Source: Thermoproteota archaeon
GTDB taxonomy: Archaea > Korarchaeota > Korarchaeia > Korarchaeales > Korarchaeaceae
Assembly (NCBI GenBank): GCA_027492205.1
Contig: JAOZFN010000004.1
Coordinates: 1-18,573, forward strand
DNA length: 18,573 nucleotides
Direction: 5' to 3'
The translations under genes were made by a program, and so were the position numbers. This document shows positions 2-17,284 of the stretch, piece by piece. The stretch's first letter is position 1, and each line of letters starts with the position of its first letter. The notes under the pieces are model-generated. The model had not been told where the DNA came from. It did not search any database and saw only the letters and a list, made by a program, of their open reading frames with translations.

Positions 2-889
2 GAGAAAGGCGGGGAGGTGGAGCTGAGAAACCTGAGCTCGATTCTGAGAAATCTCCTCAGGTTTAATAGGATCGAGGACCCATTCTTCATGTTCTCAGTC
101 GACGAGCCAGCCTCGATAAGACTCGACCTCGACGGCGCCCTAGAGGTCGAGTACTCTTACGAGCCAGAGGTCCTCTGGATCTCCTACGGGCCGATCCGTG
201 GTAAGATTGAGAGGGTATTTTCGGTCAGGAAACGGAGAGGAACGCTTTCCGTCAGCCTCGGCAGATACGCACTCTTAATGGCCGACGAGCTTCTTAAGAC
301 CCTGTCGAGGGTCAAGTTCTACAGGTTCTCCAGCCCCAAGAGATCCGTCAGCTGGGGCAAGGAGCTCCTGCCCCCGGCCGGTGAGAACCTCATTCACCTG
401 CTGAGCATCAGGGGAAGTTTGAGGGAAGTCGTGTCGTCGATCCTGTCCGACGTCGGGCTGAAGCTCAGCCTGGAGAGACCGACGGGGCGGGTTAAGTTCG
501 TCAGACAGCTGGAGACGGGCGAGCTGCTCGAGGTGCCCTGGCACCTGCTCTCGGACACCGTCAGGAGGATGATCTTCTTCCTGGCGGCCATGGAGACGAA
601 CGAGAACTCCTTCATACTGCTGGAGGAGCCAGAGGCCCACGCCTTCCCCTACTACACGAAGTTCCTGGCCGAGAGGCTGGCGATGGACAGGTCCAACTCC
701 TACCTGATAACCACGCACAACCCGTACTTCCTCGAGACCCTCGTGGACAAGGTCCCCGACGAAGACCTGACCGTGTACGTGGCCAAGAGCGAGGGGGGCG
801 TGAGCAGGTACTCGCGCGTGGAGGTCTCTGAGATCAGGGACATGATAGTGGAGGGGGCCGACGTCTTCTTGGAGCTGGGGGCTCGATGA
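2..889 (+). CDS. ABC-type (AAA_21/AAA_15-like) ATPase, 5'-truncated by the window edge
   Basis: Frame is open from base 2. Degenerate signature LSDTVRR, Walker B/D-loop ILLEEPEAH and H-loop ITTHNPY are present. Walker A is absent, so it lies upstream of the window. Confidence 0.85.
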   Translation, partial: EKGGEVELRNLSSILRNLLRFNRIEDPFFMFSVDEPASIRLDLDGALEVEYSYEPEVLWISYGPIRGKIERVFSVRKRRGTLSVSLGRYALLMADELLKTLSRVKFYRFSSPKRSVSWGKELLPPAGENLIHLLSIRGSLREVVSSILSDVGLKLSLERPTGRVKFVRQLETGELLEVPWHLLSDTVRRMIFFLAAMETNENSFILLEEPEAHAFPYYTKFLAERLAMDRSNSYLITTHNPYFLETLVDKVPDEDLTVYVAKSEGGVSRYSRVEVSEIRDMIVEGADVFLELGAR

Positions 890-1347
890 TCTGGGTGGAG
901 TGCTACCCGGACAAGGTGCTCCTGGATGTCTTGGGCTATGAGGCGAGGCACCCGAAGCACGGAGGGAAGGGGAGGGTCGTATGGAGGGCGTCTGGGGGAG
1001 GCCTCGGCCTCGTCGACTTGGACCACGAGGGTACCATATCGAGCGCGTGCGTCGTGGACGAGGAGAGGTCGAGGCCCGACAGCGGCGTGTGGGTCTTCAG
1101 GTGCGGGAGCGGCTGGGTCGTGGCCTTGGAGAATAGGCTGGAGGAATTCTTGGTGGCGGCGGCCCGGGAGTCTGGAATCAGTCTGGAGGATTACGGCCTG
1201 AGCAGCGACCCGAAGAGGCTCCACAGCCAGATCAGCAGGGTGCACCCTCCCCCCGGGTACAGGAGATGCTTGGAGGATCTATTGGAGAGGGGTGGCGGGA
1301 GGGTAAGGGTCCTCGCAGAGATCTTAAGGGATCTGGCCGGAATGTAG
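886..1347 (+). CDS. Small TOPRIM-like protein, partner of the ATPase
   Basis: ATGA overlap with the ATPase stop. N-terminal IWVECYPD (conserved E...D), glycine-rich GGKGRV and LVDLD (DxD) match the TOPRIM acidic motifs. Confidence 0.65.
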   Translation: MIWVECYPDKVLLDVLGYEARHPKHGGKGRVVWRASGGGLGLVDLDHEGTISSACVVDEERSRPDSGVWVFRCGSGWVVALENRLEEFLVAAARESGISLEDYGLSSDPKRLHSQISRVHPPPGYRRCLEDLLERGGGRVRVLAEILRDLAGM

Positions 1348-1410
1348 TCGCCTGGCGATCTGGGAGAGGTTCAGGTCGGCGGGCGCGCCCGGCTCGGTGC
1401 CCCTCCAACC

Positions 1411-1417
1411 TTTTAAG
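1411..1417 (+). promoter_or_regulatory. TATA-like box for the abrB-vapC pair
   Basis: TTTTAAG in GC-rich DNA, about 30 bp upstream of ATG 1446. Confidence 0.5.
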
Positions 1418-1445
1418 GCCCCTCTTGTGGGAGATGGGATGGGGG

Positions 1446-1693
1446 ATGGGAGTGGGAGAGCGTGTGAAGATCGACGAGAGGCGGAGGATCGTCATCCCAA
1501 AGAAGTTCAGGGGAGGGCTGAGGACGGGCGACTCCCTGATAGTTGAGAGGAGGGGGACGTCCTCTTGGTGAGGAAGGAGGGCAGGGAAGAGCTGGTAAGG
1601 AGGTTCAAGGAGATAAGACTCAAGGCGGGGGAGGGCAGGGGGAGTTGGAACGCCGAGAAGGGAAAGCACAGATACGGCGGTGTTAGAGAGTGA
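1446..1693 (+). pseudogene. vapB: AbrB/MazE/SpoVT-type antitoxin, frameshifted at the G5 run (1552-1556)
   Basis: MGVGERVKIDERRRIVIPKKFRGGLRTGDSL is an AbrB signature. Adding one G gives ERRGDVLLVRKEGREELVRRFKEIRLK...GVRE*, whose TGA (1691-1693) overlaps the vapC GTG. Confidence 0.8.
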
Positions 1694-2127
1694 GGATAGT
1701 GGACGCCGACATCCTGTCCTACGCCCTGCTGGAGGACCACATAGCGACGCCCTACGCCGAGCCCATCATTCTGAGGGGCCTCAGAGGGGAGCTGGAGCTG
1801 AACGTGGCGGGTACTACGATGCTTGAGACCTACAACACCCTGTATTGGTACTACCGGGTGAGACCGAGGCGGAGGATCTTGGAAAAGCTGGAGGTGATCG
1901 CCGAGGGCCTGAACGTCGTAAACGTGCAGGTGGACTTGGGAGTGAGAATAGCCAGGGAGGAGAACGTCCCGCTGGGCGACGGTTTACTCGTGACCACGGC
2001 GGTGGAGCATGGGATCCCCGTGATAGTATCCAACGACAGGCACGTCAGGAGACTCGCTGAAAAATATGGCCCCATATTCGAGGATCCGATCCCGGAGTCG
2101 GTGAGGAGATCCATGGGGGCGCCGTGA
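1690..2127 (+). CDS. vapC: PIN-domain VapC-type ribonuclease toxin
   Basis: IVDAD, MLETY, LGDGL and SNDRH give the four acidic PIN residues. 145 aa, directly after an AbrB gene. Confidence 0.88.
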   Translation: MRIVDADILSYALLEDHIATPYAEPIILRGLRGELELNVAGTTMLETYNTLYWYYRVRPRRRILEKLEVIAEGLNVVNVQVDLGVRIAREENVPLGDGLLVTTAVEHGIPVIVSNDRHVRRLAEKYGPIFEDPIPESVRRSMGAP

Positions 2128-2315: not shown

Positions 2316-2690
2316 TCAACCCCCAACCTCCCACTCACTGATCAGCCTCTCGGCAACTTGACAGGCCCACTTTAGCTCCCCTATCTTGAACTCTCTATTC
2401 AGAACATAATCCGCATCGTTCCTACCCTTCCTCAGATCCGCAAGCTTTTGTCCAGTTATCGGATCGAGCCTTTCGATGACCTTCTTGTGTACATCCGGTC
2501 TCTCGTACCCCTCTAGGCCGACCTTCCGCCTGGCTACAAGGAATGCGGCGTAGTACGCCCGGCTTATTCCCGTTCGAATCCAGCACTCTCTCAGTCCCTC
2601 GCCCTCCATGTCAAGGGCCCTCTCCCCCTCCTCGAGGGCCTTAAGAATCCTCCGGGAAATCGTGAGGAACCCCTTAGGGACTTGCCTCAC
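2316..2690 (-). CDS. HEPN-domain protein (UPF0332-like)
   Basis: Motifs RTGISRAYYAAF, H in PDVHKKVI, and LRKGRNDADY (RxxADY). 124 aa, helical. Confidence 0.85.
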   Translation of the reverse strand: MRQVPKGFLTISRRILKALEEGERALDMEGEGLRECWIRTGISRAYYAAFLVARRKVGLEGYERPDVHKKVIERLDPITGQKLADLRKGRNDADYVLNREFKIGELKWACQVAERLISEWEVGG

Positions 2691-2691
2691 C

Positions 2692-3246
2692 CTACCTCAG
2701 CCTCGGCCTGACAGAGATGTAGATCCTCTTGCTGTCCCCCTCCCCGAACGCTTCGCTGGCCATTTCGATTAGCCTGTTCCAGGTGGCGTCGAGTTCGTCG
2801 AAGTCGGTGGTGTCCAGCTCGAATCTGATGACGGGCGCGCGCCACCCCTCAACCTCTGGGTCTTCAAACGCCTCTATAGACACAGAATGAGTCTTCTCAG
2901 GGAGCATTTCCCTGGCCCTCCTGATCAGCCTGGAGGTGCCCCTGAGGAACGTGCCCAGATTCAACTCTCCCGATCGGGCCATCCTCTCGATGAGATCCTC
3001 TGCCTCGGGCTTGATCCTCATGTGAAGTTCGGAAGAGAGCCTTTCAAGCGAACTTCTAACGGGCGTCACAGATATCTCGTGCATCGCCCGCTGAGTTTGG
3101 ACCACAAAGGAGATGGGAGGCAGAGAGATCTGCAGATGGGAGACGGTGACCCCTCCCCCCACGGGATATAGGATGCTAGACGAGCAGGTCAATTCAGGGT
3201 ACGTCGGCCCCGTCAGGCTCATCGAGGATAGGCTCTCTGAGGCCAT
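2692..3246 (-). CDS. Hypothetical protein, candidate antitoxin for the HEPN gene
   Basis: Stop lies 1 bp before the HEPN start. Ser/Thr/Pro-rich N-terminus of about 60 aa, then an alpha/beta domain with IEAFEDPE...APVIRF. Confidence 0.65.
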   Translation of the reverse strand: MASESLSSMSLTGPTYPELTCSSSILYPVGGGVTVSHLQISLPPISFVVQTQRAMHEISVTPVRSSLERLSSELHMRIKPEAEDLIERMARSGELNLGTFLRGTSRLIRRAREMLPEKTHSVSIEAFEDPEVEGWRAPVIRFELDTTDFDELDATWNRLIEMASEAFGEGDSKRIYISVRPRLR

Positions 3247-3248
3247 CC

Positions 3249-3719
3249 CTACTTACTCCCTCCCCTCTCCTCCTTTATGCGGGACACTACTGTACTAAAA
3301 ACCTGGTAAATCGGATATCCCAGCTGATCGTAATATCCTTTTACTTTTAGCACCCTTATTATTACAGGTTTTATCTCAAAAATGTAAGTCCCGCCAGCGA
3401 CGTTCACTCTGTAGGAGCTCCATCTCTCCTCCACAACCTTGTCCACCTCCACTTCTTGCTTGATCTCCTCAGGCAGGCTATCTAGCGGTTTTTCAGGCGG
3501 CCTGGGCTCCTTTCTCTCTTGGGAACGGACGCCAATCACGGTTTGTGTCCCTGGAATCAGCTTGGGGGGTTTCGTATCCTCCAAGAGGAGGAGCTTGACG
3601 AGGACTGGCTTAAAACTTAGAATTGCACCATCCCTCAGCCTATACCTAGACCAGCTTTCTCTGATCACCTCAAAATCGACTTCGGGCAAGTTGTGTAAGG
3701 GGATCTTAGGGGCCTGCAT
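3249..3719 (-). CDS. Hypothetical protein with an internally duplicated beta-rich domain
   Basis: EVDFEVIRESWSRYRL...FKPVLVKL aligns with EVEVDKVVEERWSSYRV...IKPVIIRV. First gene of the operon, with a TATA-like box at 3742-3748 (minus) and a 2-bp gap to the next gene. Confidence 0.75.
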   Translation of the reverse strand: MQAPKIPLHNLPEVDFEVIRESWSRYRLRDGAILSFKPVLVKLLLLEDTKPPKLIPGTQTVIGVRSQERKEPRPPEKPLDSLPEEIKQEVEVDKVVEERWSSYRVNVAGGTYIFEIKPVIIRVLKVKGYYDQLGYPIYQVFSTVVSRIKEERGGSK

Positions 3720-3951
3720 TCGAGCTGATCAGACACCCATTCTTAAATTCGCTTTTCCCACTGATCGGTTCAGATCTGTTTGGGGGACGACTACTGAGAG
3801 GGGACGGTACCTGCCACGGCGGGGATGTCTGAACCCCACCCACGCGGTGATATCATGCTGATTGTATAGTTGGGAGATGTCTGGCAATTGTAGAGAAGCG
3901 TCAAGCTCCCTCAGCGAAGCGCCAGGTCAGGTCGGTTATGGAAAAAGCGTC

Positions 3952-3990
3952 AGATCAGGTTTTAAGACCCTGGCCTTAAAACCCTGATCT
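3952..3990. repeat. 15-bp inverted repeat with one bulge and an 8-nt loop
   Basis: AGATCAGGTTTTAAG-accctggc-CTTAAAACCCTGATCT. Confidence 0.75.
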
Positions 3991-4270
3991 CGAGGATCGA
4001 GTCCGCCGTCGGCGTCAGGGTCGATCCGAAGAATTACCGGAAGGTGTTCGAGATCCTTTACCTGGGCATCGGTCTGGCGACAGGGTCTTCTGGGAGATCA
4101 AGGGCGAACTCGCCAAGGAGGGGATCAAGATCGTCCGTATGACGGAATTGCTCCCGTGCATATTCCCAGAGGTTAAGAGTAAGGTCATGACCTGGGAGGG
4201 TTACAGGACCCTCCCTGAGAGTTAGTACACTCTCAGGGTGATCGAGTACTTCGTGGCCGAGCAGGAAAAC
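3981..4270 (+). pseudogene. Degraded gene remnant, family uncertain
   Basis: Host-like codons: TLISRIESAVGVRVDPKNYRKVFEILYLG, a frameshift near 4075, then DRVFWEIKGELAKEGIKIVRMTELL...TLPES*YTLRVIEYF with an in-frame TAG at 4223. Confidence 0.45.
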
Positions 4271-6878: not shown

Positions 6879-7949
6879 ATGGCAGACTGCCTGTACATCC
6901 CGGGGCACCCCGTAGCCGTCTGCTCCATGCCTCGCGCGACCGAGATACCCACGTTGGCCTCGGAGTTCGACGCCGCGCTGGTGCTCGCAGAGGAGGACGA
7001 ACTCAGGGGAAATTACGATCTGAGCGAGTGGGGCCGCCACGGGGTAGAGTACCTGCACCACCCGATCCCCGACTTCAGCTCGCCCGACCTACTGGAACTT
7101 CACGGGCTGGCCCGCTGGGTGGCGTCTAGGGTGTCCCAGGGGAAGAGGGTGCTCATCCACTGTCTCGGCGGATCGGGGAGGAGCGGTACGGTGGCCGCAG
7201 CGTACCTGATCGCCAGCGGGATGGTCTTTGAGGACGCCGTCGAGGCCGCGAGGTCGGCGAGAGTGGGGGCGATCGAAACCAACAGCCAGATGGCGATCCT
7301 CGAGGCTTACGACCTACTGCTGAGATCCCTGCCAGAACCGAAGCTCTCGAGCGTGGTATGCCATGGTAGGAAGTACAATTTCGGCAGGGGGAGGAAACAC
7401 GCGGCGAAGGTCGCCCAGCTGGCGATGAAGCTCTGGAAGCTGACCTCGAGGGAACTTGGCGTCAAGCCCGAGATGCCGCCCGCGCCGCTGACCGCAGGAT
7501 CGATCCTGCACGACATTGGAGTTTGCGCGGCTGGGGAGGACAGACACCACGAGAGTAGCTACCGAGAGATCCTGGAGAGTGACGAGCTGAGGTCAGCGCT
7601 CGGTGAGGTGGACCTCACGCTGACAGCTCTTGTGGCCCTCTTTCACAGGAAGAAGGGAGATCCGAGGAGCGACGAGAGGGTGCCGGATGATTGGATGGAT
7701 CTAGTGGCCAAGATGGCCGCTGTCGTCAGGATGGCGGACGCGCTGGACAGGACCCTGTGTCAGCTGGTGGACGGTGTGGGGCTGGACTGTCGGGGAGGCG
7801 AGTGTGTCTTAACGGTGTACTACAGCAAGAGGGAGCCAGAGGTGGAGCTGGCGAAGGCCAGGGAGAAGAGTAGACTGTTCGAGGAAGTCTTCGGGGTCAG
7901 GCTCAGCTTCAGGTCCGCTTACAAGCCGCGGGCCGACAGGTGGGCCTAG
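6879..7949 (+). CDS. Dual-specificity (CX5R) phosphatase fused to a Ppx/GppA-type HD domain
   Basis: HHPIPDFSSP, HCLGGSGRSG and IETNSQ form the PTP/DSP domain. HAAKVAQLA, LHDIG, HHESSY, FHRKK and RMADALDRT form the HD domain. Confidence 0.85.
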   Translation: MADCLYIPGHPVAVCSMPRATEIPTLASEFDAALVLAEEDELRGNYDLSEWGRHGVEYLHHPIPDFSSPDLLELHGLARWVASRVSQGKRVLIHCLGGSGRSGTVAAAYLIASGMVFEDAVEAARSARVGAIETNSQMAILEAYDLLLRSLPEPKLSSVVCHGRKYNFGRGRKHAAKVAQLAMKLWKLTSRELGVKPEMPPAPLTAGSILHDIGVCAAGEDRHHESSYREILESDELRSALGEVDLTLTALVALFHRKKGDPRSDERVPDDWMDLVAKMAAVVRMADALDRTLCQLVDGVGLDCRGGECVLTVYYSKREPEVELAKAREKSRLFEEVFGVRLSFRSAYKPRADRWA

Positions 7950-8009: not shown

Positions 8010-8518
8010 TCACCCACCCTCTCCGCTCACTATCCTCTCGTAGAGGTCCTCGCCTATCCAGAAGCCCGATTTCAGGAGTCTGTCCAACTCCCTCCGAAGA
8101 TCCTCGATCATTCCCTCCCGCCTGGCCCTCATCAAGATGCCGACGGTGCCCGTGACCTTGAGACCCAGGCTCCTCGCCACCCTCCTGGCCTCACGCTCGT
8201 CGAGGAGAACCAGATCGGCCCCCTCCTCCAGGGCGAGCACGATGGCCTCCGCCTCGCCCTCGTCCAGCTCCCTCGCCAGGACCTTCCTCAGCCTCTCGTC
8301 CCGAATCTTCAAAACCCTGATCCAGCGAGCCTCGGCTATCCTCCTGGCGTCTTCCCTCTCGCCTCCCTCGATCACGCACTCCCTGTAGACGGCCTCCGGC
8401 ACGAGCACCTCCCCAAAGAGCAGCCTGAGCAGCTCCAGCCTGCCTATCTTGGCTTGGCCAAGTGAATGAGTGGAGAGGAGTCGCTAACGACCCTCGGCGA
8501 ACGCGAGGTCCTCCTCAA
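8010..8518 (-). pseudogene. DUF3368 PIN-domain toxin disrupted by a 5-bp duplication
   Basis: VVSDSSPLIHLAK reads into IGRLELLRLLFGEVLVPEAVYRE only if one CTTGG copy (8448-8457) is removed. LDEGEAEAI, LLDEREAR and GTVGIL motifs follow. Start codon uncertain (TTG at 8518). Confidence 0.85.
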
Positions 8519-8729: not shown

Positions 8730-9219
8730 CGATCTTCACCCCCTCACGGCCCTGATAAACTTTAGTCCGACGGGGTCGGGGGAGATCGTCCGCAGAGCGA
8801 TCGCCGCATCGGGAGAGCGCCGACGCGCGGGACGCTCAAGTCAGGGGTCGAAGACGACTACGGCGGCTTGCAGGGCGATGGTCAGGCGAGGGCAGGGGCC
8901 GGAGGCGGGACCCTCGTCCAGGGGGCAATCCTTCAGGGGCGTTCAGAAAAGGTAACTACGACGCAACATTTGGGCTCTTTTGGGGCAAATTGGAACGAAT
9001 ATTTGAAGTATAGGTACAAGAGCATTCCTGTTCACAAATTGCCATTTAGGAGGTCGCAAAAAGATTTATTGTTTTTCCCTATTTTAGATTTTACTCTCAC
9101 CGACCACTTCATCTAACGGCCCTTTGCTTCGAGAGGCCCGGGAGCGTTCTCCCAACCTCGCGCACATGCATGACTTAAATGGATAAGAGTTATTCCCAGC
9201 TGCAGTCGGAGGTAGAACA

Positions 9220-10236
9220 TTGGGCGCTACATCAGGTTTAGGCTACCTTGTCAGGATCATCAGAAGAGGCCTGTGGGACTTACTAGGCGACAGAAACTCT
9301 CCGCTGAGAGAATACTTGCTTCCATCTTTCCTAGATCCACTATCGAGTAACTATATGAACGAGAATGATCTCATAAGGATGCTTTACGATTCACTCAGTA
9401 ACCTGTCCCAGAGGGGCCCCATCCCCCTAGGCTCGGTTGGGGGGTACGACCTCTCGGTACTTGTGAGGTCCTGCATAACCCACAAGAGAATTGTTCACTT
9501 CACTACCAGCTGCTCAAATCCTCCCAGGACAAAACCCGTAGGAGCCGAGACCAGCGATATATCTTTCTTGGTCACGTACAAATACTACAGCCGTTCAGGA
9601 GAGTACGATCTGTCTGAGAAAGTGACCTTCATCCAGCTCAAGGTCGGGAGGCCCGGGCAGCAAGCTCTTGGTATGTGGGACATAAAGTTGAATCAACTCA
9701 TTTTGATGACGGAGTGGCCCGTCTTCTTATATGGTAGGGCATGCTATGACCCAAAAGAGTGCAGACTCTCTCCGGACTTGTGCTCCTTCTATCTACTTCT
9801 TCGGTCCGGAAGTGAATACACTGAGAGGCTCTGCTCCTACCGGGGGCTGAGAGGAAATCAGCAGCTCCAAGGAGCTCCGTGCATGCTCAGGAAAACGAGA
9901 GATTTGGCGGTATCAGCCATTTTAGTTCGAGGGTGGATAGAGTCTGCCGATGGGAAAAATCTACAAAAGATATTCTGTGACGGCGCAGATTTCAGAAAAT
10001 TCTCACCCTTCGGCTCACCAGAATTCGGTCCTCTTAGCTTAATCCAGAACGTGATATGGCAGTATATTGGAGTGTCATGCGAGGAGACCTCTAGATTTCT
10101 CAAGAAGATATTTCCAGAGCTCTTCAATGATTTCTACTCCGAGGCAAATGGGGGAACGAGCGACGGCTACAGATGGAAAGATGTAGGTTACTCGCTTGGC
10201 GTTCACATCATCCTGAAGCTCAAGAGACTCGAGTAG
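9220..10236 (+). CDS. Hypothetical protein, putative PD-(D/E)XK-like nuclease
   Basis: GGAGGT RBS and TTG start, lower GC than host genes. Motif AETSDISFLV...VTFIQLK resembles the E..D...QxK variant. Confidence 0.55.
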   Translation: MGATSGLGYLVRIIRRGLWDLLGDRNSPLREYLLPSFLDPLSSNYMNENDLIRMLYDSLSNLSQRGPIPLGSVGGYDLSVLVRSCITHKRIVHFTTSCSNPPRTKPVGAETSDISFLVTYKYYSRSGEYDLSEKVTFIQLKVGRPGQQALGMWDIKLNQLILMTEWPVFLYGRACYDPKECRLSPDLCSFYLLLRSGSEYTERLCSYRGLRGNQQLQGAPCMLRKTRDLAVSAILVRGWIESADGKNLQKIFCDGADFRKFSPFGSPEFGPLSLIQNVIWQYIGVSCEETSRFLKKIFPELFNDFYSEANGGTSDGYRWKDVGYSLGVHIILKLKRLE

Positions 10237-11355: not shown

Positions 11356-11629
11356 TCGGCAAAGTTATCCCGCCATTCCATAAAATTATTCCATGGCGAT
11401 CCCAATAGAGACTGCTAGATTAACATTCAGAGACCCCCCAAAGGGAGACCCTCAAAGTTTGGGGACGAGAGGTTATCTTGCTCGCATAGGAACTGAGAGA
11501 AAGAAGATCAGAACTGTGTATTTGTTCAACGGCGGAGTTCGTGCGGAATCCATCGCGAGTTCACTCGGGGTTAGGGCAAAGAATTTAGCCTACATCTTTC
11601 CTATCTGCATTCCCTAGGAAGGTGAGGCA

Positions 11630-12064
11630 GTGGCCTGCTGGATTTTTGTGACTGGAGAAAAGAATTGGCCGGTAATTAGAGATAAAGGCGTATACGGGAT
11701 GAGGGAGAAGTGGAAAGGACTCATGCAGAGAGTTAGACCTGGAGATCAGGTGGCCATTTATCTCAAGGCGAGGAGCAAGGACGGCGAGAGAATCCCCGGG
11801 CAGATTGTGGGGATATTCGAGGTCGTCTCAGAGCCCTTTGTGAGTCGAGAGCGCGTCTTTAAAGGGGACATATATCCCTTAAGAGTTAAGTTAAAGTCAG
11901 TTATTTGTCCATCCATCCCAATAGAGTTTAAGGCTTTGGTTACTAAATTAAAATTTGTGAAAAATAAGCAGAAGTTTTCAGGATACTTCCGGCGGGGGAT
12001 CATAGAGATTCCTAAAGAAGATTTCGAAACGATAAAGAAGGAATTAATATCGAAAATCTCATGA
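11630..12064 (+). CDS. EVE-domain protein (UPF0310-like)
   Basis: WIFVT..NW.VI..GVYG, VRPGDQVAIY, IVGIFEVVSEPF, YPLRVKL and EIPKEDFETI. AGGTGA RBS; low GC. Confidence 0.9.
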   Translation: MACWIFVTGEKNWPVIRDKGVYGMREKWKGLMQRVRPGDQVAIYLKARSKDGERIPGQIVGIFEVVSEPFVSRERVFKGDIYPLRVKLKSVICPSIPIEFKALVTKLKFVKNKQKFSGYFRRGIIEIPKEDFETIKKELISKIS

Positions 12065-12571
12065 AGCTCTCTCAGCCACCCGTTTCCAAGCCTCTTCTGG
12101 TAGAAGGTATCTAACTACCTCGACCTCCTCTAGTGGAGTAATCCTCGATGCAGGATCCCGAATCACGTAAAGCTCTGGGTTGGAAGTTGCATTAACAACT
12201 ATGTAAATCCAGTACTTGCCCCTGAATCTTCTGGCCGCAATCCACTCGTTCGGGGTCAGGACGACGCCGCCACGCTCTGCTCTGGTTTTTACCTCAATGT
12301 ACCTCACTTCTCCACCGCCCTCCGATCTCACGTCAAATCCTAGGTTCTCTGATGAGACATCGACTGGCACCCTTCCATTTCTTCTCTCGTACTCCATAAC
12401 AAAGAGCATCCCTAGCCTCTCGATCTCCTCATTCTCCACCATCTCGTCGGGAGATTGGGCCTCTAGCGGCAGCACCGCCGCGACTCCAATGACCTCAGGA
12501 GGCTTTAGCGTAAGCTTTGCCTCCAATCTGATCCTCTGAGCGAGCTCCTCCCTTACCGCCACTCCTGCCAT
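12059..12571 (-). CDS. DUF3883 (NO VEIN C-terminal-like) nuclease domain, probably the 3' fragment of an SNF2 helicase gene
   Basis: EIERLGM..VMEYE, DVS..NLGFDVRS, RYIEVK, LTPNEW and YWIYIV. The preceding LTLKPPEVIGVAAVLP resembles the helicase-to-DUF3883 linker. Confidence 0.85.
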   Translation of the reverse strand: MAGVAVREELAQRIRLEAKLTLKPPEVIGVAAVLPLEAQSPDEMVENEEIERLGMLFVMEYERRNGRVPVDVSSENLGFDVRSEGGGEVRYIEVKTRAERGGVVLTPNEWIAARRFRGKYWIYIVVNATSNPELYVIRDPASRITPLEEVEVVRYLLPEEAWKRVAERAS

Positions 12572-13075: not shown

Positions 13076-14452
13076 TTGGGTGAGTTCCTGACCGAGTTCC
13101 TGGAGGCGCTCAGGCGCCGCCTACCCGACCTGAGGGGCGCCTTCCTCCAGACCGACCGCTCCTCGGGCGACCTCGTCGGTCGGTGGTTCAGCGAGCGCTG
13201 GCTCCCCGAGCTTCCCGCGGAGGTCGTCCCGGAGAGGGTCGTGGCGATCGACGCCAGCATGGACACGCGTCAGTACGCGGGCGGGGTAACCGTGATCTAC
13301 GCCCGCGCCCTGGCCATGGAGTTCCGCCCCCTCGACCGGTCCCGCGGGGAGCGCGTTGCCGCCAGGACCTTCGACGTCGTCCCCCACACCGGCCAGTACG
13401 ACGAGGCCAGGAACCTCTCATCCAGGCTCGCGGAGCACCTGGAGCACATGGCCGCCATCCAGGCCATGGAGACACTCGAGCCGGGCGTCCTCCTCCTCGA
13501 CGGCAGCCTGGCGGGGAGGCACATAGCCTCGGTCTTCAACTTCACCCGACACGGCTGGTTCGCCGCGGAGTACGCCCTGGCCTACTCCAGGATGCTAGAG
13601 CTGGCCAGGCTTAGGGGGTGGAGGGTGCTGGCCGTGGCCAAGACCAGTCGGGCCGCGCCCATGAGGGACCTGGCCCTGAGGGAGATCTTCAGCGACCTCA
13701 TGTCCCGCCTCTCGACGCTCGACCCGGCCACAGAGTCGGAGCTGGTGAGGGCCTGGGACCTGGCCGCAAAGGACCCGATGGTCGGGGTGGAGGTCGCCCT
13801 CAACGCCGCGGAGGACAGGCCCGACCTGGCCGCGGATCTAACGGCCCTGGCCCACCTGTTCTACGAGAAGCACCTCCGACACTCGGACGTCGACGTGATC
13901 CGGAGGTACGTGAGGGGCGAGGGTAGAACCCCGGCGATGCTCGTCGGCCCCTACACCGACCCGGTCCGCAAGCAGGTGAACTCGATGAGAGATCACCCCT
14001 TGGACTTCGCCAGGGAGGCGTCCTCGCCCGAGACAGCCAGGAGGGCCCTTGAGGGCGAGAGGGGCGAGGACCTCGAGGAGACAGCCCTCAGGGCTGTCAG
14101 GGAGGCGATCTCACTCCCCACACCAGTGACGGTCTACGCGAGGTTCAGGGAGGGGGACGACCCCATGAAGCTCGAGTTTTCGTGCTGGGAGCTGGGCGTC
14201 GACTTACCGTGGCACGCGGCCCCTCCTGAGCGCCTGGTCGAGCAGGGGAGGGAGGCGGTCGGGAGGCTGGTTGGCGTGGCCAGGGCGGGCTACGCCGGGC
14301 CGAGGTTCCACAACGTGTGGCTCGAGAGGGTGGACAGGCGGGTGAAGCTGAGGGCCGGCACGGTCGAGGCCCTCTACGAGAGGTACCTGTGGAGGGAGCT
14401 CGGAGAGCTAGTCCCTCACTCGAGGGGTGAGAGGCGTGTCTTCGGGATATGA
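13076..14452 (+). CDS. nurA: NurA nuclease
   Basis: VAIDAS, EHLE, LLLDGSL and AVAKTS motifs. GGAGG RBS; directly upstream of herA. Confidence 0.85.
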   Translation: MGEFLTEFLEALRRRLPDLRGAFLQTDRSSGDLVGRWFSERWLPELPAEVVPERVVAIDASMDTRQYAGGVTVIYARALAMEFRPLDRSRGERVAARTFDVVPHTGQYDEARNLSSRLAEHLEHMAAIQAMETLEPGVLLLDGSLAGRHIASVFNFTRHGWFAAEYALAYSRMLELARLRGWRVLAVAKTSRAAPMRDLALREIFSDLMSRLSTLDPATESELVRAWDLAAKDPMVGVEVALNAAEDRPDLAADLTALAHLFYEKHLRHSDVDVIRRYVRGEGRTPAMLVGPYTDPVRKQVNSMRDHPLDFAREASSPETARRALEGERGEDLEETALRAVREAISLPTPVTVYARFREGDDPMKLEFSCWELGVDLPWHAAPPERLVEQGREAVGRLVGVARAGYAGPRFHNVWLERVDRRVKLRAGTVEALYERYLWRELGELVPHSRGERRVFGI

Positions 14453-16109
14453 GGGTGAGCCTGGGTTCAGGTCTGAATTTGGGTCCGGATTCGAATCCGG
14501 GATCGGGATCCCGGGAGAGGAGGTCGGGACCATAGTCGGGGCCGCGAGCCCCATCGAGCTCACGATAGCGTGCGAGGGTCCGCCACCGCCGCTCTGGGAG
14601 TACTTGACGTTCCCGAGCGTGGAGGAGGTGGGATGGGAGGGCGAGCGCAGGCCCGTGCACGTGCTCGCCCAGGTGGCCCTCCCCGTAAGGGAGTCCCTCA
14701 TACTGACCGAGACCACCGACCCGGAGGCCATCAGGAAGATCAGGGACATGGGCGCCGACTCCCCCCTCTCCTACGCCTTCCTCAGGGTGCTGGGCTACGT
14801 CGACCCCGAGCTGGGGGTGGTGAGGTCCCCCAGGAACGCCCCGCAGCCAGGGCTCCCGGTGTACAGGGCTCCCGACGAACTCCTCAGGGAGTTCTACGAG
14901 TTCCCCGAGGAGGAGAGGGTGAGGATAGGCAACCTGGTCACGAGGCGCGGTGTGGCGGTGGACCTGAGCGTCAACGGCTTCAGGCGCCACCTCGCGGTTC
15001 TTGCGGCGACTGGAGCCGGCAAGAGCTACGCCACCGGCCTGATCGTGGAGCAGCTTCTGGAGAAGGGCGCCACGGTCGTGATCATAGACCCCCACGCCGA
15101 CTACGTCTACCTGGGCCTCAGGGAGGTGGAGGGAGGGGGCTACGAGGAGCTGGAGATCGCGGGGAGGGTCACCGTCCTGAAGAACCCCGGCAGCAGCGGA
15201 CGCTACGAGGGGGCCGTCGGGAGTGAGAGAATCCGAGAGTTCACCGTGGCCTTCTCAGAGCTGGACTTCGACTCCATCTGCGAGCTGGCCGGGATCCAGA
15301 CGGGGTGGTCCAAGGTCAGGGCGGCCCTCCTGGAGGCCCTCGACGAGCTGGAGGGGCAGGCCTACACCGTGGAGGACGTCATAGAGAGGCTCAGAGAGAG
15401 GGCCGGGCAGGCGAGGGCGTCAGACGCGCCGCCCATCATCTCGGCGGCGCTGAGGCTGTCAACCCTCCGAGGCCTCAGGCTCTTCGGGTACACGACCACG
15501 GACGTTGTCAGCTACCTGAGGGAGCCCGGCAGGGCCCTCGTGGTGGACCTCTCCGGCGCCACGGACTTCGAGATGGACGTCGCCACGCACCTGATCGTTG
15601 ACTCGGTCTTCAGGGCGAAGGTGAACCGCGAGATCAACTACCCGATCTTCCTCTTCGTGGAGGAGGCCCACAGGGTGATACCGAAGGGCAGGCGAATGCT
15701 CTCATCCTCGTCGATCGTCAAGGTAGCCAGGGAGGGCAGGAAGTTCGGCGTGTTCCTCACGATAATCTCGCAGAGGCCCAGCGCAGTCGACCCGGACGTG
15801 CTCAGCATGTGCCAGAGCATGATCGTCATGAAGACCGTGAACCCCGCGGACCAGCAGGCCATACGCCAGGCGGCTGAGAAGATGAGCGAGGACCTGCTCC
15901 GGGATCTCCCCGGACTCAACGTGGGCGAGGCCGTCGTGGTGGGAGAGATCGTGAGGGCGCCAGCCATAGTCAGGATCTCCGGGAGGAGGAGCGCCGAGGG
16001 CGGGTCGGACATAGACGTCGTTGCCGAGCTGGCCAGGGCCAGGAGGGACGCCCAGGTGACTCCGGAGGACGCTAGCCTTCCCACCGGTGGGGAGGGTTGG
16101 GAACTCTGA
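14436..16109 (+). CDS. herA: HerA helicase/translocase
   Basis: HAS-barrel-like N-terminus, RHLAVLAATGAGKS, IIDPHADY, FVEEAHR, AREGRKFG, SQRPS and LPGLNVGEA. GTG 14436 follows a GGGGTGA RBS (ORF track start is 14427). Confidence 0.93.
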   Translation: MSSGYEGEPGFRSEFGSGFESGIGIPGEEVGTIVGAASPIELTIACEGPPPPLWEYLTFPSVEEVGWEGERRPVHVLAQVALPVRESLILTETTDPEAIRKIRDMGADSPLSYAFLRVLGYVDPELGVVRSPRNAPQPGLPVYRAPDELLREFYEFPEEERVRIGNLVTRRGVAVDLSVNGFRRHLAVLAATGAGKSYATGLIVEQLLEKGATVVIIDPHADYVYLGLREVEGGGYEELEIAGRVTVLKNPGSSGRYEGAVGSERIREFTVAFSELDFDSICELAGIQTGWSKVRAALLEALDELEGQAYTVEDVIERLRERAGQARASDAPPIISAALRLSTLRGLRLFGYTTTDVVSYLREPGRALVVDLSGATDFEMDVATHLIVDSVFRAKVNREINYPIFLFVEEAHRVIPKGRRMLSSSSIVKVAREGRKFGVFLTIISQRPSAVDPDVLSMCQSMIVMKTVNPADQQAIRQAAEKMSEDLLRDLPGLNVGEAVVVGEIVRAPAIVRISGRRSAEGGSDIDVVAELARARRDAQVTPEDASLPTGGEGWEL

Positions 16110-16122
16110 CGGGGGTGAGGGC

Positions 16123-17283
16123 TTGAGCGTCAGGATCGTGGGGGTCGAGGCTCACCTGGACCCCTACTTCTCCTGGCTCCCTCCCAGCAGGGCCAGCGAT
16201 AGGCGAGCTGACTTCTTCAGGGTGTTCGAGGAGGCCGTGGAGTACGCGGTGAGGGAGGGGGCGCACCTGTTCCTCCTCCCCGGCGACGTGTTCGACAGGG
16301 TCAACCCGAGGAACGCGGCCCTGGCCAGGTTCGCGTCCGACCTCGTCAGGCTGAGGGAGAGGGGCGTGAGGGTCTTCGCGGTGCCCGGGCACCACGACAG
16401 GCCCAAGTACGCCAGGGACCCGTCTCCCCTCAGGATATTTCACGAGGCTGGCCTCCTGAAGCTCTTCGACCGACTGGACAGGATCGAGGGCGATTACGTC
16501 GAGGTGGACGGGCTGAGGGTCTGGGTGGGGGGCGTGGGGTACAACCCCTACCTAGAGCCCGGGCAGGACCCGATGGCTGGGCTCCCCTCGAGCGAGCCCG
16601 ACGCCGACCTCGCGGTGCTGATGACCCACAACACGATCAGGGGGTTCCCGGCCTACTCGCCCGGGGACCCGGTGGTCGACCCCGCGAGCATACCCAGGTG
16701 GGTTGACCTCGTCGTCGCCGGGCACCTCCACCAGCACCTTGTCAGGAGGGTAGGGGGCACCACCATATGCTACGTGGGAACCGCGGAGAGGCTCAGCTTC
16801 GCCGAGGAGGATCAGGATAAGGGGTTCACCGTCATAGAGGCTGGCAGGGATGAGATAAGGGTCGAGCAGGTCAGGACGAGCGCCAGGCCGATGAAGACGC
16901 TTCGAGTCCCGGTGCCGGAGGAGGGGGACCTCACGGAGCTGATCCTGGGCGAGCTGGAGCGGGCGGCCCAGGCCACACCGAGAGACGCTCTGGTCAGGCT
17001 CAAACTGGAGGGCGCCATGACCCTAGAGGTGCATTCGACCTACAGAAGGTCCGAGATCGTCAGGGCCGGCAACCGGATCTTCTTCGGGGTCAACCTTGAC
17101 GACGGCGACGTGGAGTACGTGGGGTCCTTCGAGGCCCCGCACGTGGAGCTGGAGACTCCTCTCAAAGAGCTGGAGAGGGTGTATCGGGAGAGGCTCTCCT
17201 CCGCCGACGAGGAGGAGCAGGCGATCCTCGAGGAGGCGTATCGCAGGGCGAGGGAGGCCCTGGAGGAGGCGGGAGGGTGGTAG
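16123..17283 (+). CDS. mre11: Mre11/SbcD-like metallophosphoesterase nuclease
   Basis: EAHLD, PGDVFD, PGHHD, MTHN, AGHLH and GTAERLSFAE..KGF motifs. TTG 16123 follows GGGGGTGA; lies between herA and rad50. Confidence 0.9.
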   Translation: MSVRIVGVEAHLDPYFSWLPPSRASDRRADFFRVFEEAVEYAVREGAHLFLLPGDVFDRVNPRNAALARFASDLVRLRERGVRVFAVPGHHDRPKYARDPSPLRIFHEAGLLKLFDRLDRIEGDYVEVDGLRVWVGGVGYNPYLEPGQDPMAGLPSSEPDADLAVLMTHNTIRGFPAYSPGDPVVDPASIPRWVDLVVAGHLHQHLVRRVGGTTICYVGTAERLSFAEEDQDKGFTVIEAGRDEIRVEQVRTSARPMKTLRVPVPEEGDLTELILGELERAAQATPRDALVRLKLEGAMTLEVHSTYRRSEIVRAGNRIFFGVNLDDGDVEYVGSFEAPHVELETPLKELERVYRERLSSADEEEQAILEEAYRRAREALEEAGGW

Positions 17284-17284
17284 G

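What the first reader, a model, noticed from the sequence alone, without database searches (positions are those of the whole stretch)
2316..3719. Three-gene HEPN operon with no recognisable MNT: candidate tripartite toxin-antitoxin-accessory system
Seen: one promoter and gaps of 2 bp and 1 bp join a duplicated beta-domain protein, a protein with a Ser/Thr/Pro-rich N-terminal tail plus a DPE-motif domain lacking the MNT GS/DxD motif, and a HEPN protein. Known: archaeal HEPN genes usually pair with minimal nucleotidyltransferases, and TAC systems use a beta-rich SecB-like chaperone that binds a disordered antitoxin tail. Inference: gene 1 could be a chaperone or sensor that binds the gene 2 tail and so controls the HEPN protein. 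I do not recognise this as a described system.
Basis: partly seen in the sequence, partly recalled or inferred. Interest (0 to 1): 0.7.

Follow-up and report, generated by a model that had tools for sequence, protein, structure and literature searches.

The report
HEPN gene with non-MNT partner module
Three tightly packed archaeal genes form a conserved module in which a HEPN RNase-like protein is paired with a previously unnamed partner protein instead of the usual nucleotidyltransferase, plus an exchangeable third gene.

Summary
Three minus-strand genes lie 2 nt and 1 nt apart behind a TATA-like box: g1 3249-3719, g2 2692-3246 and g3 2316-2690.

- **g3** is an AF0298-type HEPN-T protein. It has R90-x3-D94-Y95 and an upstream His68, all invariant in 14 relatives.
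- **g2** has a disordered S/T/P-rich tail, a helical part and a beta-beta-alpha-beta domain. It shows no Pfam match, no conserved GS/DxD motif and no profile similarity to the genome's own MNTs.
- **g1** is a confidently modelled all-beta duplicate of an unnamed family, with no structural match in PDB.

The conserved core is g2 plus HEPN. Of 16 loci holding this HEPN subfamily, 13 lack an MNT. In 11 of those 13 a significant g2-type gene sits directly upstream.

g1 accompanies the pair in 5 of the 13 loci, in three different arrangements. One protein found elsewhere fuses a g1 domain to a g2 domain. Other loci carry unrelated first genes instead, and most g1 relatives are solo genes far from any HEPN.

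The best reading is a toxin-antitoxin-like or defence module in which g2 replaces the MNT and the third gene is an exchangeable accessory. Binding and toxicity are untested. I rate it a new variant of a known kind.

The parts
3741..3756 (-). BRE/TATA-like promoter element (AAAAGCG AATTTAAGA). Its TATA part lies roughly 22-30 nt upstream of the g1 ATG, which implies a leaderless or near-leaderless transcript.
   Evidence: Read from the sequence. The promoter role is inferred from the general archaeal promoter layout and was not tested.
3725..3732 (.). Perfect 8-nt palindrome CTGATCAG between the TATA-like box and the g1 start codon. A near copy, CCGATCAG on the minus strand, lies at 3761-3768 on the other side of the box. 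Candidate operator.
   Evidence: All 3 exact copies in the window lie in the operon (2338, 2921, 3725). There are 18 matches with up to 1 mismatch, against 10.5 +/- 3.3 expected. The operator role is inferred.
3249..3719 (-). g1: 156-aa all-beta protein made of two like repeats. It belongs to an unnamed, widespread family.
   Evidence: ORF. Model pLDDT 90.4, pTM 0.79. The two halves align at E 6e-4. Its profile finds 358 representative proteins at E<=1e-3. None of the 30 representatives and 15 locus-encoded members scanned has a Pfam match.
3067..3246 (-). g2 residues 1-60: S/T/P-rich, poorly conserved N-terminal tail predicted to be disordered.
   Evidence: 37% S+T+P. pLDDT below 50 over residues 1-30 and 32-60. 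Poorly aligned among homologues, and partly missing in P0006.
2905..3066 (-). g2 residues 61-114: helical part with a short strand followed by two helices, a ribbon-helix-helix-like layout.
   Evidence: Secondary structure H63-74, E77-78, H80-92, H97-114. Weak NCBIfam MobA match at residues 72-115, E 0.064. The RHH reading is an inference.
2692..2904 (-). g2 residues 115-184 plus the stop codon: conserved beta-beta-alpha-beta domain carrying the 'DPE..W' loop. This is the part shared by all g2-type HEPN partners.
   Evidence: Strands 120-128, 136-144 and 176-181, helix 149-167, pLDDT about 72-88. 15 homologues align over this domain. Held-out members were recovered at E 4e-6 to 4e-10.
2316..2690 (-). 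g3: 124-aa HEPN protein of the AF0298-like HEPN-T kind.
   Evidence: Profile against PDB: 9xbd E 7e-7, 2hsb (AF0298) E 0.0036. Relatives pass the PF05168 cut-off. phrog_5176 E 6.7e-10.
2406..2423 (-). Codons for R90-N-D-A-D94-Y95, the variant HEPN motif in which Tyr stands where the canonical His would be.
   Evidence: R90, D94 and Y95 are invariant in 14 sequences. This variant is described for AF0298-like HEPN-T in PMC3710099 (passages read).
2487..2489 (-). Codon for His68, the alternative conserved histidine N-terminal to the motif.
   Evidence: Invariant in 14 sequences. Matches the description in PMC3710099.
2242..2257 (-). Hairpin followed by a T-rich run, 59 nt downstream of the g3 stop codon. 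Possible terminator.
   Evidence: This is a pattern match only: 4 were found in the region against 2.0 +/- 1.6 in shuffles.

Best explanation
This is a conserved archaeal module whose core is a two-gene pair. One gene is a small AF0298-type HEPN-T protein (g3), a predicted RNase-like toxin or effector with an intact variant active site. The other, encoded directly upstream and translationally coupled, is a partner from a previously unnamed family (g2) that stands where the minimal nucleotidyltransferase (MNT) antitoxin normally stands.

g2 has no nucleotidyltransferase catalytic residues. I infer that its conserved C-terminal beta-beta-alpha-beta domain holds the HEPN in check by stoichiometric binding (type II-like) and not by AMPylation (type VII-like).

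The variable N-terminal part of g2, here a disordered S/T/P-rich tail plus an RHH-like helical piece, would connect to an exchangeable third gene. In this window the third gene is g1, a duplicated all-beta protein recruited from a widespread family. It would act as an accessory input, either as a sensor, an adaptor or a stabiliser.

Shown: the gene anatomy, the family assignments, the conservation of the g2-HEPN pair, the recurrence of g1 with the pair, and the patchy distribution. Inferred: toxicity, neutralisation by binding, the role of g1, and autoregulation at the promoter palindrome.
For: 1. Anatomy. Three co-directional genes with 2-nt and 1-nt gaps lie behind one TATA-like box.

2. g3 is a HEPN-T.
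- Profile against PDB gives 9xbd E 7e-7 and AF0298/2hsb E 0.0036.
- Relatives pass the PF05168 cut-off: P0010 23.4 bits, L072 30.4, L060 30.1, L075 24.7, L073 22.5.
- R44, Y46, Y47, H68, R90, D94 and Y95 are invariant in 14 sequences, both g2-linked and MNT-linked.
- This matches the alternative active site described for AF0298-like HEPN-T (PMC3710099, passages).

3. g2 is not an MNT by sequence.
- No Pfam, NCBIfam or PADLOC hit.
- hhalign against 11 MNTs of the same genome gives probability 0.3-0.6%.
- No conserved GS or DxD motif in 15 homologues.

4. The pair is conserved. 16 loci of this HEPN subfamily were read.
- 3 have an MNT upstream (L079, L081, L082).
- 13 do not.
- In 11 of those 13 a g2-type gene lies directly upstream. 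Eight are significant in the first-round HMM searches (the window's own g2 and its two closest relatives being seed sequences of that model), and 3 held-out ones reach E 4.4e-10, 6.9e-9 and 4e-6 among 1354 ORFs.
- In the other 2 (L063, L080) a gene of similar architecture is not significant.

5. The same genome has 16 PF01909 and 18 PF05168 matches, with at least 10 adjacent pairs. MNT-HEPN is therefore the local norm, and this locus departs from it.

6. g1 is linked to the pair.
- It is present in 5 of the 13 loci: g1-g2-HEPN (window, L006, L058), g2-HEPN-g1 (L076) and g1 divergent from g2-HEPN (L077).
- P0066 carries a g1 domain (residues 9-154) fused to a g2 C-domain (residues 215-301, E 3.9e-7 / 1.1e-9).

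7. The distribution is patchy and accessory-like.
- g1 and g2 are in 0 of 4 same-genus genomes.
- The HEPN subfamily is in 11 of 401 and 2 of 120 genomes sampled.
- The neighbourhood holds a PIN/AbrB pair, an AAA_21 ATPase, DUF3368, EVE and NOV_C genes.
Against: - No experiment or accepted interaction prediction supports binding, toxicity or rescue.
- g3 itself has no Pfam HEPN hit at E<=1. It is also not among the genome's PF05168 matches at E<=0.01, so its assignment rests on transitive homology.
- RNase activity of AF0298-type HEPN-T proteins is predicted, not shown, in the text I read.
- 2 of the 13 non-MNT loci have an upstream gene that the g2 profile does not recognise (E 0.53 and 0.73).
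- g1 is absent from 8 of the 13 loci.
- The g1 family is mostly solo and lies in housekeeping-like neighbourhoods. Only 1 of 30 Bathyarchaeia loci is HEPN-linked, and 0 of 20 loci from other lineages are. Its presence here could therefore have a different meaning.
- The loci come from few lineages and kin are not independent.
Confidence: 0.5

Rival explanations
1. g2 is a highly diverged, catalytically dead descendant of an RHH-MNT antitoxin, that is, a pseudo-nucleotidyltransferase. The module would be a decayed HEPN-MNT system that kept binding and lost AMPylation. g2 would not be a new partner family.
For: - g2 has the same position and orientation as an MNT upstream of a PF05168-type HEPN.
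- MNT partners in L079 and L081 carry an N-terminal extension ahead of the MNT domain (161 and 222 aa). This parallels g2's helical part followed by an alpha/beta domain.
- The order helix, strand, strand, helix, strand resembles the MNT core.
Against: - Profile-profile comparison with 11 MNTs of the same genome gives probability at most 0.6%.
- No residue at the GS or DxD positions is conserved among 15 homologues.
- The short helix between the first two strands of an MNT is replaced by a tight loop in the model.
Confidence: 0.3
2. The module is an abortive-infection type defence system and not an addiction-type toxin-antitoxin pair. The exchangeable first gene (g1, X or Y) would sense a viral cue, g2 would be the adaptor, and HEPN would be the RNase effector that is released or activated on infection.
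For: - A variable first gene sits next to a constant g2-HEPN core. This modularity is typical of defence systems.
- The length of the g2 N-terminal part goes with the kind of third gene: 141-226 aa with g1, 182-184 aa with X, 267-287 aa with Y.
- Elsewhere g1-family genes abut an AAA_15/AAA_21 ATPase (L017, gap 0) and a MauJ-like protein (L022, gap 0).
- The window holds other defence-like genes.
Against: - No PADLOC model fits. The only hit is a weak HEPN_IX match, E 0.027, over 28 residues.
- No virus-related evidence was obtained.
- Most g1 relatives lie in housekeeping-like neighbourhoods.
- This reading overlaps with the best explanation and cannot be separated from it by sequence alone.
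Confidence: 0.25
3. One reading: a TAC-like tripartite system in which g1 is a SecB-like chaperone that binds the disordered g2 tail and thereby stabilises the antitoxin.
For: - g2 has a disordered N-terminal tail.
- g1 is beta-rich and tightly coupled to g2.
- One g1-g2 fusion protein exists.
Against: - g1 is dispensable for the pair in 8 of 13 loci, and can lie downstream of the pair or divergent from it.
- From memory, not checked here: in TAC the chaperone-addiction segment is C-terminal, whereas this tail is N-terminal.
Confidence: 0.1
4. The three proteins form a non-toxic RNA-handling complex. g1 would be a nucleic-acid-binding beta-sheet protein and HEPN an RNA-binding or RNA-processing subunit. 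The TA-like look would be incidental.
For: - The g1 family is common: 91 of 401 Bathyarchaeia genomes.
- It usually occurs as a single gene near housekeeping-like genes.
Against: - The triad and the g2-HEPN pair have a patchy distribution: 0 of 4 congeners, 11 of 401 and 2 of 120 genomes.
- The window locus sits among TA and defence-like genes.
- The HEPN subfamily also occurs with classical MNT partners.
Confidence: 0.12

Closest known systems
HEPN-MNT (HepT-MntA) toxin-antitoxin modules, with a PF05168/COG2250-type HEPN and a PF01909 minimal nucleotidyltransferase
   Same: - A small HEPN-T protein has its partner gene directly upstream and tightly coupled.
- The distribution is patchy.
- The same genome carries at least 10 such pairs.
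- MNT-linked relatives of g3 share all seven invariant residues.
   Different: - The partner (g2) has no nucleotidyltransferase match, no GS/DxD motif and no profile similarity to MNTs.
- A third gene belongs to the unit.
- Neutralisation by AMPylation, known for HEPN-MNT from memory and from reference titles seen, cannot work without those catalytic residues.
AF0298 (PDB 2hsb) / HEPN-T family of Anantharaman et al. 2013 (PMC3710099)
   Same: The Rx4-6H histidine is missing, and a second conserved histidine lies N-terminal to the motif (passages read). g3 has H68 and R90-x3-D94-Y95, and its profile matches 2hsb at E 0.0036.
   Different: The table rows and passages of that paper that I read list standalone forms, MNT fusions and R-M neighbourhoods for HEPN-T. 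They mention no g2-type partner or three-gene unit. I did not read the whole paper or its additional files.
RnlA-RnlB and LsoA-LsoB
   Same: A HEPN RNase is kept inactive by direct interaction with a small non-MNT protein encoded next to it (passage in PMC3710099).
   Different: No homology was detected between g2 and anything named. From memory, RnlA is a large multidomain protein. Those systems are bacterial and have two genes.
TAC tripartite systems (toxin, antitoxin, SecB-like chaperone)
   Same: Both have three genes and a disordered extension on the middle protein.
   Different: No SecB-like fold was found for g1. The tail is N-terminal, the toxin family differs, and the third gene is exchangeable and not always present.
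AbiV (HEPN RNase with an RNA antitoxin; bioRxiv 10.1101/2024.05.05.592566)
   Same: It is a HEPN without an MNT partner, and AF0298 is among its closest structural relatives (passages read). PMC3710099 says AbiV shares the alternative histidine position with HEPN-T.
   Different: According to that preprint the AbiV antitoxin is an RNA. Here the partner is a conserved protein. No sequence link between g3 and AbiV was tested.

Membership tests
HEPN domain, PF05168 (HEPN-T) | Sequence match to the family model above its curated cut-off | tested here: inconclusive
   g3 itself has no Pfam hit at E<=1 and is not among the genome's PF05168 matches at E<=0.01. Its relatives do pass the 22-bit cut-off: P0010 23.4, L072 30.4, L060 30.1, L075 24.7, L073 22.5. 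The g3 profile finds the solved HEPN proteins 9xbd (E 7e-7) and 2hsb (E 0.0036).
HEPN domain, PF05168 (HEPN-T) | Canonical Rx4-6H motif | tested here: not met
   The motif reads R90-N-D-A-D-Y95, with Tyr where His would stand.
AF0298-like HEPN-T subfamily (PMC3710099) | Basic residue of the motif kept, His of the motif absent, and a second conserved His N-terminal to it | tested here: met
   R90 and H68 are invariant in 14 sequences, and no His lies within 4-6 residues after R90. The description was read.
HEPN domain | Four-helix up-down bundle fold and dimer | not tested
   No structure of g3 was predicted.
Minimal nucleotidyltransferase, PF01909 (for g2) | Sequence or profile match to MNT | tested here: not met
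   No Pfam or NCBIfam MNT hit. hhalign of g2 alignments (4, 5 and 15 sequences) against 11 MNTs of the same genome gives probability 0.3-0.6%. The same MNT model does find the partners in L079, L081 and L082.
Minimal nucleotidyltransferase, PF01909 (for g2) | Conserved hG[GS] and [DE]x[DE] catalytic motifs | tested here: not met
   The only G[SG] in g2 is at residue 30, in the disordered tail. D129-P-E131 and D148-F-D150 are not conserved among 15 homologues.
Minimal nucleotidyltransferase, PF01909 (for g2) | Pol-beta-type alpha/beta fold | tested here: inconclusive
Type II toxin-antitoxin module | Two small adjacent co-directional genes with a conserved pairing and patchy distribution | tested here: met
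   A g2-type gene lies directly upstream of the HEPN in 11 of 13 non-MNT loci. The module is in 0 of 4 congeners, and the HEPN subfamily is in 11 of 401 and 2 of 120 genomes.
Type II toxin-antitoxin module | Toxin arrests growth and the antitoxin binds and neutralises it | not testable with these tools
   This needs expression and binding experiments.
TAC (SecB-like chaperone) for g1 | SecB-like fold of the third protein | tested here: inconclusive

The most novel reading that the evidence does not exclude
A branch of HEPN-T toxins has swapped its nucleotidyltransferase antitoxin for a new protein family (g2). That family's small beta-beta-alpha-beta domain neutralises the HEPN by binding, and its variable N-terminal part plugs into interchangeable input proteins: g1, a duplicated beta fold with no solved relative, or the unrelated X or Y proteins. 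This would be a modular three-component archaeal defence or TA system, built from at least two protein families that are not in Pfam.
Probability: 0.35. Interest if true: 0.7.

Novelty: new variant of a known kind. Interest (0 to 1): 0.55.

Why it matters
HEPN-MNT pairs are among the most abundant mobile gene pairs of thermophilic archaea, and this genome alone has at least ten. Their known neutralisation chemistry depends on the MNT.

A recurrent HEPN-T branch has a partner with no nucleotidyltransferase residues, so a second way of controlling these RNase-like proteins should exist.

The work also assigns a context to three unnamed protein families:
- **g2:** a HEPN partner.
- **g1:** 358 representative clusters, in 91 of 401 Bathyarchaeia genomes sampled, with no structural relative found.
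- **X and Y:** the alternative first genes.

All of this can be tested directly with a few expression constructs.

Tried and rejected
**Interaction prediction.** I sent g1, g3 and g2 with g2 as partner. The verdict was 'no answer'. The tool states that this counts neither for nor against binding.

**Sequencing runs.** None was listed and no RNA holder is listed.

**Family libraries.**
- g1: no match in Pfam, NCBIfam, PADLOC or PHROGs.
- g2: only chance-level rows (NCBIfam MobA E 0.064, phrog_28367 E 0.081).
- g3: only a weak PADLOC HEPN_IX row, E 0.027.
- Wider g1 members, g2-like, X and Y proteins: no credible Pfam or PHROGs match.

**Fold searches.**
- g1: PDB Foldseek, VIA wide and BFVD gave nothing convincing.
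- No SecB, RHH or clear MNT match stood out.

**ESM Atlas.** Only unnamed clusters, with scores below 0.9.

**The search for related loci.**
- The g1 protein, alignment A2 and alignment A1 found nothing.
- P0066 gave only a spurious hit in genome contigs and nothing in metagenome contigs. The neighbours of the fusion protein therefore remain unknown.
- The 7762-bp contig that appears to hold P0003, P0163 and P0008 could not be fetched. That they share one contig is inferred from the equal contig length only.

**Homology of other downstream partners.** The 170-aa proteins that follow single-domain g1 genes in three deltaproteobacterial MAGs showed no relation to g2 (hhalign probability 0.4-1%). 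X is unrelated to g1 (probability 0.06%).

**Earlier findings of this scan.** Nothing to show.

**Literature.** Searches, and passages read, gave no description of a g2-type HEPN partner. These were word searches of an open-access subset, and no supplements were opened.
Full report
**Observation**

The window is a whole 18,573-bp contig (C8) of a 1.94-Mb, 17-contig archaeal genome. One search lists three minus-strand ORFs:
- g1: 3249-3719, 156 aa
- g2: 2692-3246, 184 aa
- g3: 2316-2690, 124 aa, GTG start

The junctions read TAG-GG-ATG and TAG-G-GTG, so the gaps are 2 and 1 nt. Relatives of g3 begin at the same place, which supports the GTG start.

A BRE/TATA-like AAAAGCGAATTTAAGA lies at 3741-3756, its TATA part roughly 22-30 nt before the g1 ATG. 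That fits a leaderless archaeal transcript, which is an inference from the sequence. A hairpin with a T-run lies 59 nt past the g3 stop codon. The promoter tool models sigma-70 only, so 'one promoter' is plausible but not shown.

**g3 is a HEPN of the AF0298 kind**

g3 itself has no Pfam hit. It does match phrog_5176 at E 6.7e-10.

Its relatives pass the PF05168 cut-off of 22 bits: P0010 23.4, and L072 30.4, L060 30.1, L075 24.7 and L073 22.5. A five-sequence profile finds the solved 'HEPN domain-containing protein' 9xbd (E 7e-7) and AF0298/2hsb (E 0.0036).

In 14 aligned sequences R44, Y46, Y47, H68, R90, D94 and Y95 are invariant. The motif is R-x-x-A-D-Y. The canonical histidine is missing and a conserved histidine lies further towards the N-terminus. 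Passages of Anantharaman et al. 2013 (PMC3710099) describe exactly this for the AF0298-like HEPN-T family and propose an alternative active site. That activity is a prediction.

**g2 is not an MNT by any sequence test**

The AlphaFold model has mean pLDDT 68.7.
- Residues 1-60 are below 50.
- Residues 61-184 are around 85.
- Secondary structure runs helix 63-74, short strand 77-78, helices 80-92 and 97-114, strands 120-128 and 136-144, helix 149-167, strand 176-181.

The tail is 37% S+T+P. The strand-helix-helix stretch, together with a weak MobA row (E 0.064), suggests a ribbon-helix-helix. This is an inference.

No library names g2. The genome has 16 PF01909 and 18 PF05168 matches, at least ten of them adjacent pairs. 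I built an alignment of 11 of its MNTs and compared it with g2 alignments of 4, 5 and 15 sequences. The probability was 0.3-0.6%. The 'DPE' loop and the acidic residues after the second strand vary among the 15 homologues, so no catalytic set is conserved.

**g1 is a duplicated beta protein of an unnamed, widespread family**

The model is confident with only four sequences (pLDDT 90.4, pTM 0.79). It is all-beta and has two repeats with long strands. The two halves align at E 6e-4, and single-domain relatives exist.

A profile search of 1.84 billion representatives gives 358 proteins at E<=1e-3 and 63 at E<=1e-10. None of the 30 representatives scanned, nor of 15 further g1-family proteins encoded in fetched loci, has a Pfam match.

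**The triad recurs**

The same three families occur in the same order and tightly coupled in two other places:
- G011:C42, which is another genus of the same family.
- A Thermoproteales MAG contig, L058. There the local HMM E-values are 7.8e-46, 6.8e-7 and 2.6e-22, and the HEPN is cut by the contig end.

P0003 (g1), P0163 (g2) and P0008 (g3) each come from a contig of 7762 bp. This is probably a fourth triad, but the DNA could not be read.

None of the 4 same-genus genomes has g1 or g2.

**The conserved core is g2 plus HEPN**

Searching the HEPN profile in two archaeal classes gave hits in 11 of 401 and 2 of 120 genomes. Together with the loci above, this makes 16 distinct HEPN loci.
- 3 have an MNT directly upstream (L079, L081, L082). 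These HEPNs score 53-73 bits on PF05168.
- 13 have no MNT.
- In 8 of the 13 the upstream gene is significant in the first-round g2 HMM searches. This count includes the window's own g2, which, like its closest relatives, was among the sequences the model was built from.
- An HMM built from the ten significant C-domains then recovered three held-out genes at 4.4e-10, 6.9e-9 and 4e-6 among 1354 ORFs. The next-best row was E 0.49.
- The remaining two (L063, L080) have an upstream gene of similar size and layout that is not significant.

**The third gene varies**

g1 is present in 5 of the 13 loci and in three arrangements:
- g1-g2-HEPN in the window, L006 and L058.
- g2-HEPN-g1 in L076.
- g1 divergent from g2-HEPN in L077.

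Two paralogous loci in one Bathyarchaeota MAG have an unrelated 225-237-aa protein X in first place. Three loci have a helical protein Y of about 210 aa.

The length of g2 goes with the kind of third gene: 141-226 aa with g1, 182-184 aa with X, 267-287 aa with Y. The numbers are small.

One representative, P0066, carries a g1 domain followed by a g2 C-domain (E 3.9e-7 and 1.1e-9). This is a fusion of the two families.

**g1 is mostly found elsewhere**

It occurs in 91 of 401 Bathyarchaeia genomes sampled. Of 30 loci fetched there, only one, the same place as L076, holds HEPN and g2. The others are single genes near housekeeping-like genes.

In 20 loci from other lineages no HEPN or g2 was found. 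There the neighbours include:
- an AAA_15/21 ATPase (gap 0),
- a MauJ-like protein (gap 0),
- a winged-helix protein,
- HicA-like and ParE-like genes.

**Mechanism**

I commit to a TA-like or defence module. g3 is the RNase-like effector with a variant but intact site. The C-domain of g2 is its protein inhibitor, standing in for the MNT. The N-terminal part of g2 links to an exchangeable accessory gene, here g1.

The anatomy, the family assignments, the pair conservation and the distribution are shown. Toxicity, binding, the role of g1 and autoregulation are inferred.

One small observation fits autoregulation. The 8-nt palindrome CTGATCAG lies between the TATA box and the start codon, with a near copy on the other side of the box. 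All three exact copies in the window are inside the operon. L006 and L058 also have a short palindrome at the same place. This is weak evidence.

**Comparison and novelty**

The closest known systems are HEPN-MNT modules and the AF0298 HEPN-T family. g3 is a new member of that family. The g2 partner and the three-gene, exchangeable layout were not found in the libraries or in the texts I searched. That search covered an open-access subset by word, and no supplements were read. I therefore rate this a new variant of a known kind, of moderate interest. It offers a clear and cheap experimental route.

Noticed in passing
window 2338-2345, 2921-2928, 3725-3732 (exact); 2204, 2231, 3661, 3761, 3951 (1 mismatch): The palindrome CTGATCAG is concentrated in and around the operon. 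All 3 exact copies in the window lie there, as do 8 of the 18 copies with up to 1 mismatch (expected 10.5 +/- 3.3 for the whole window). The copies inside g2 and g3 share an 11-mer and encode R-L-I. This could be operator sites or chance.
   Followed up: partly
window 3966-4225 (+): Two overlapping stop-free frames of 58 and 81 aa read like one gene broken by a frameshift. They lie in the low-GC spacer (about 0.50) between the operon and the next genes. No other copy exists in the genome.
   Followed up: partly
window 1266-2127 (+): An AbrB/MazE-type antitoxin (match at residues 67-96 of the 1266-1571 ORF) is followed by a PIN-domain gene at 1690-2127. The antitoxin reading frame seems to continue in another frame (1565-1693), so it may be frameshifted.
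   Followed up: no
window 2-889 and 886-1347 (+): An AAA_21 (AbiEii-like) ATPase, cut by the contig end, is followed by an overlapping 153-aa ORF with no family match. Elsewhere a g1-family gene abuts an ATPase of this kind (L017).
   Followed up: no
window 13076-18571 (+): NurA, HerA, Mre11-like phosphoesterase and Rad50-like genes lie in a row. This is the archaeal DNA end-resection cluster, in the high-GC part of the contig.
   Followed up: no
window 8010-8408, 11630-12571, 6879-7949: Other conflict-type genes are present: a DUF3368 (PIN-like) gene, an EVE-domain gene convergent with a NOV_C gene, and a dual-specificity phosphatase fused to a Ppx/GppA domain III. GC content dips at 9001-10000 and 11501-12500.
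   Followed up: no
L011 1291-2146 and L012 1462-2098 (G041, G042): A single-domain g1 relative (74 aa) is followed, with a 2-nt gap or an overlap, by a protein with an N-terminal tail, a coiled coil and an ArsR-type winged helix. No HEPN is present.
   Followed up: partly
L019, L020, L021 (deltaproteobacterial MAGs): A single-domain g1 relative of about 90 aa is followed at a 2-3 nt gap by a conserved protein of about 170 aa. That protein has no family match and no detectable relation to g2.
   Followed up: partly
L022 3950-5262; L017 3971-5517; L033 2327-3024; L016 3413-4483: g1-family genes directly abut other conflict-type genes: a MauJ-like protein (PF17419, E 6e-12), an AAA_15/AAA_21 ATPase, a weak ParE-like gene (E 0.015) and a HicA-like gene (E 3.9e-11).
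   Followed up: partly
L084-L113 (Bathyarchaeia): The g1 family is common there, in 91 of 401 genomes sampled. It is mostly a single 150-185-aa gene next to housekeeping-like genes such as HIT-family, protease-like and transporter-like ORFs. This suggests a general cellular role for the family.
   Followed up: partly
G008:C1:545942-546211 and G012:C22:33914-34183 (L007, L008): The g2 profile gives weak matches (E about 0.009) inside a 439-aa ORF in two genomes of the sister genus. I did not examine them.
   Followed up: no
G043:C75:3254-3701 (L070, L071): The Thermoproteales MAG holds a second g1-like copy that is interrupted by stop codons. No HEPN or g2 lies next to it.
   Followed up: no
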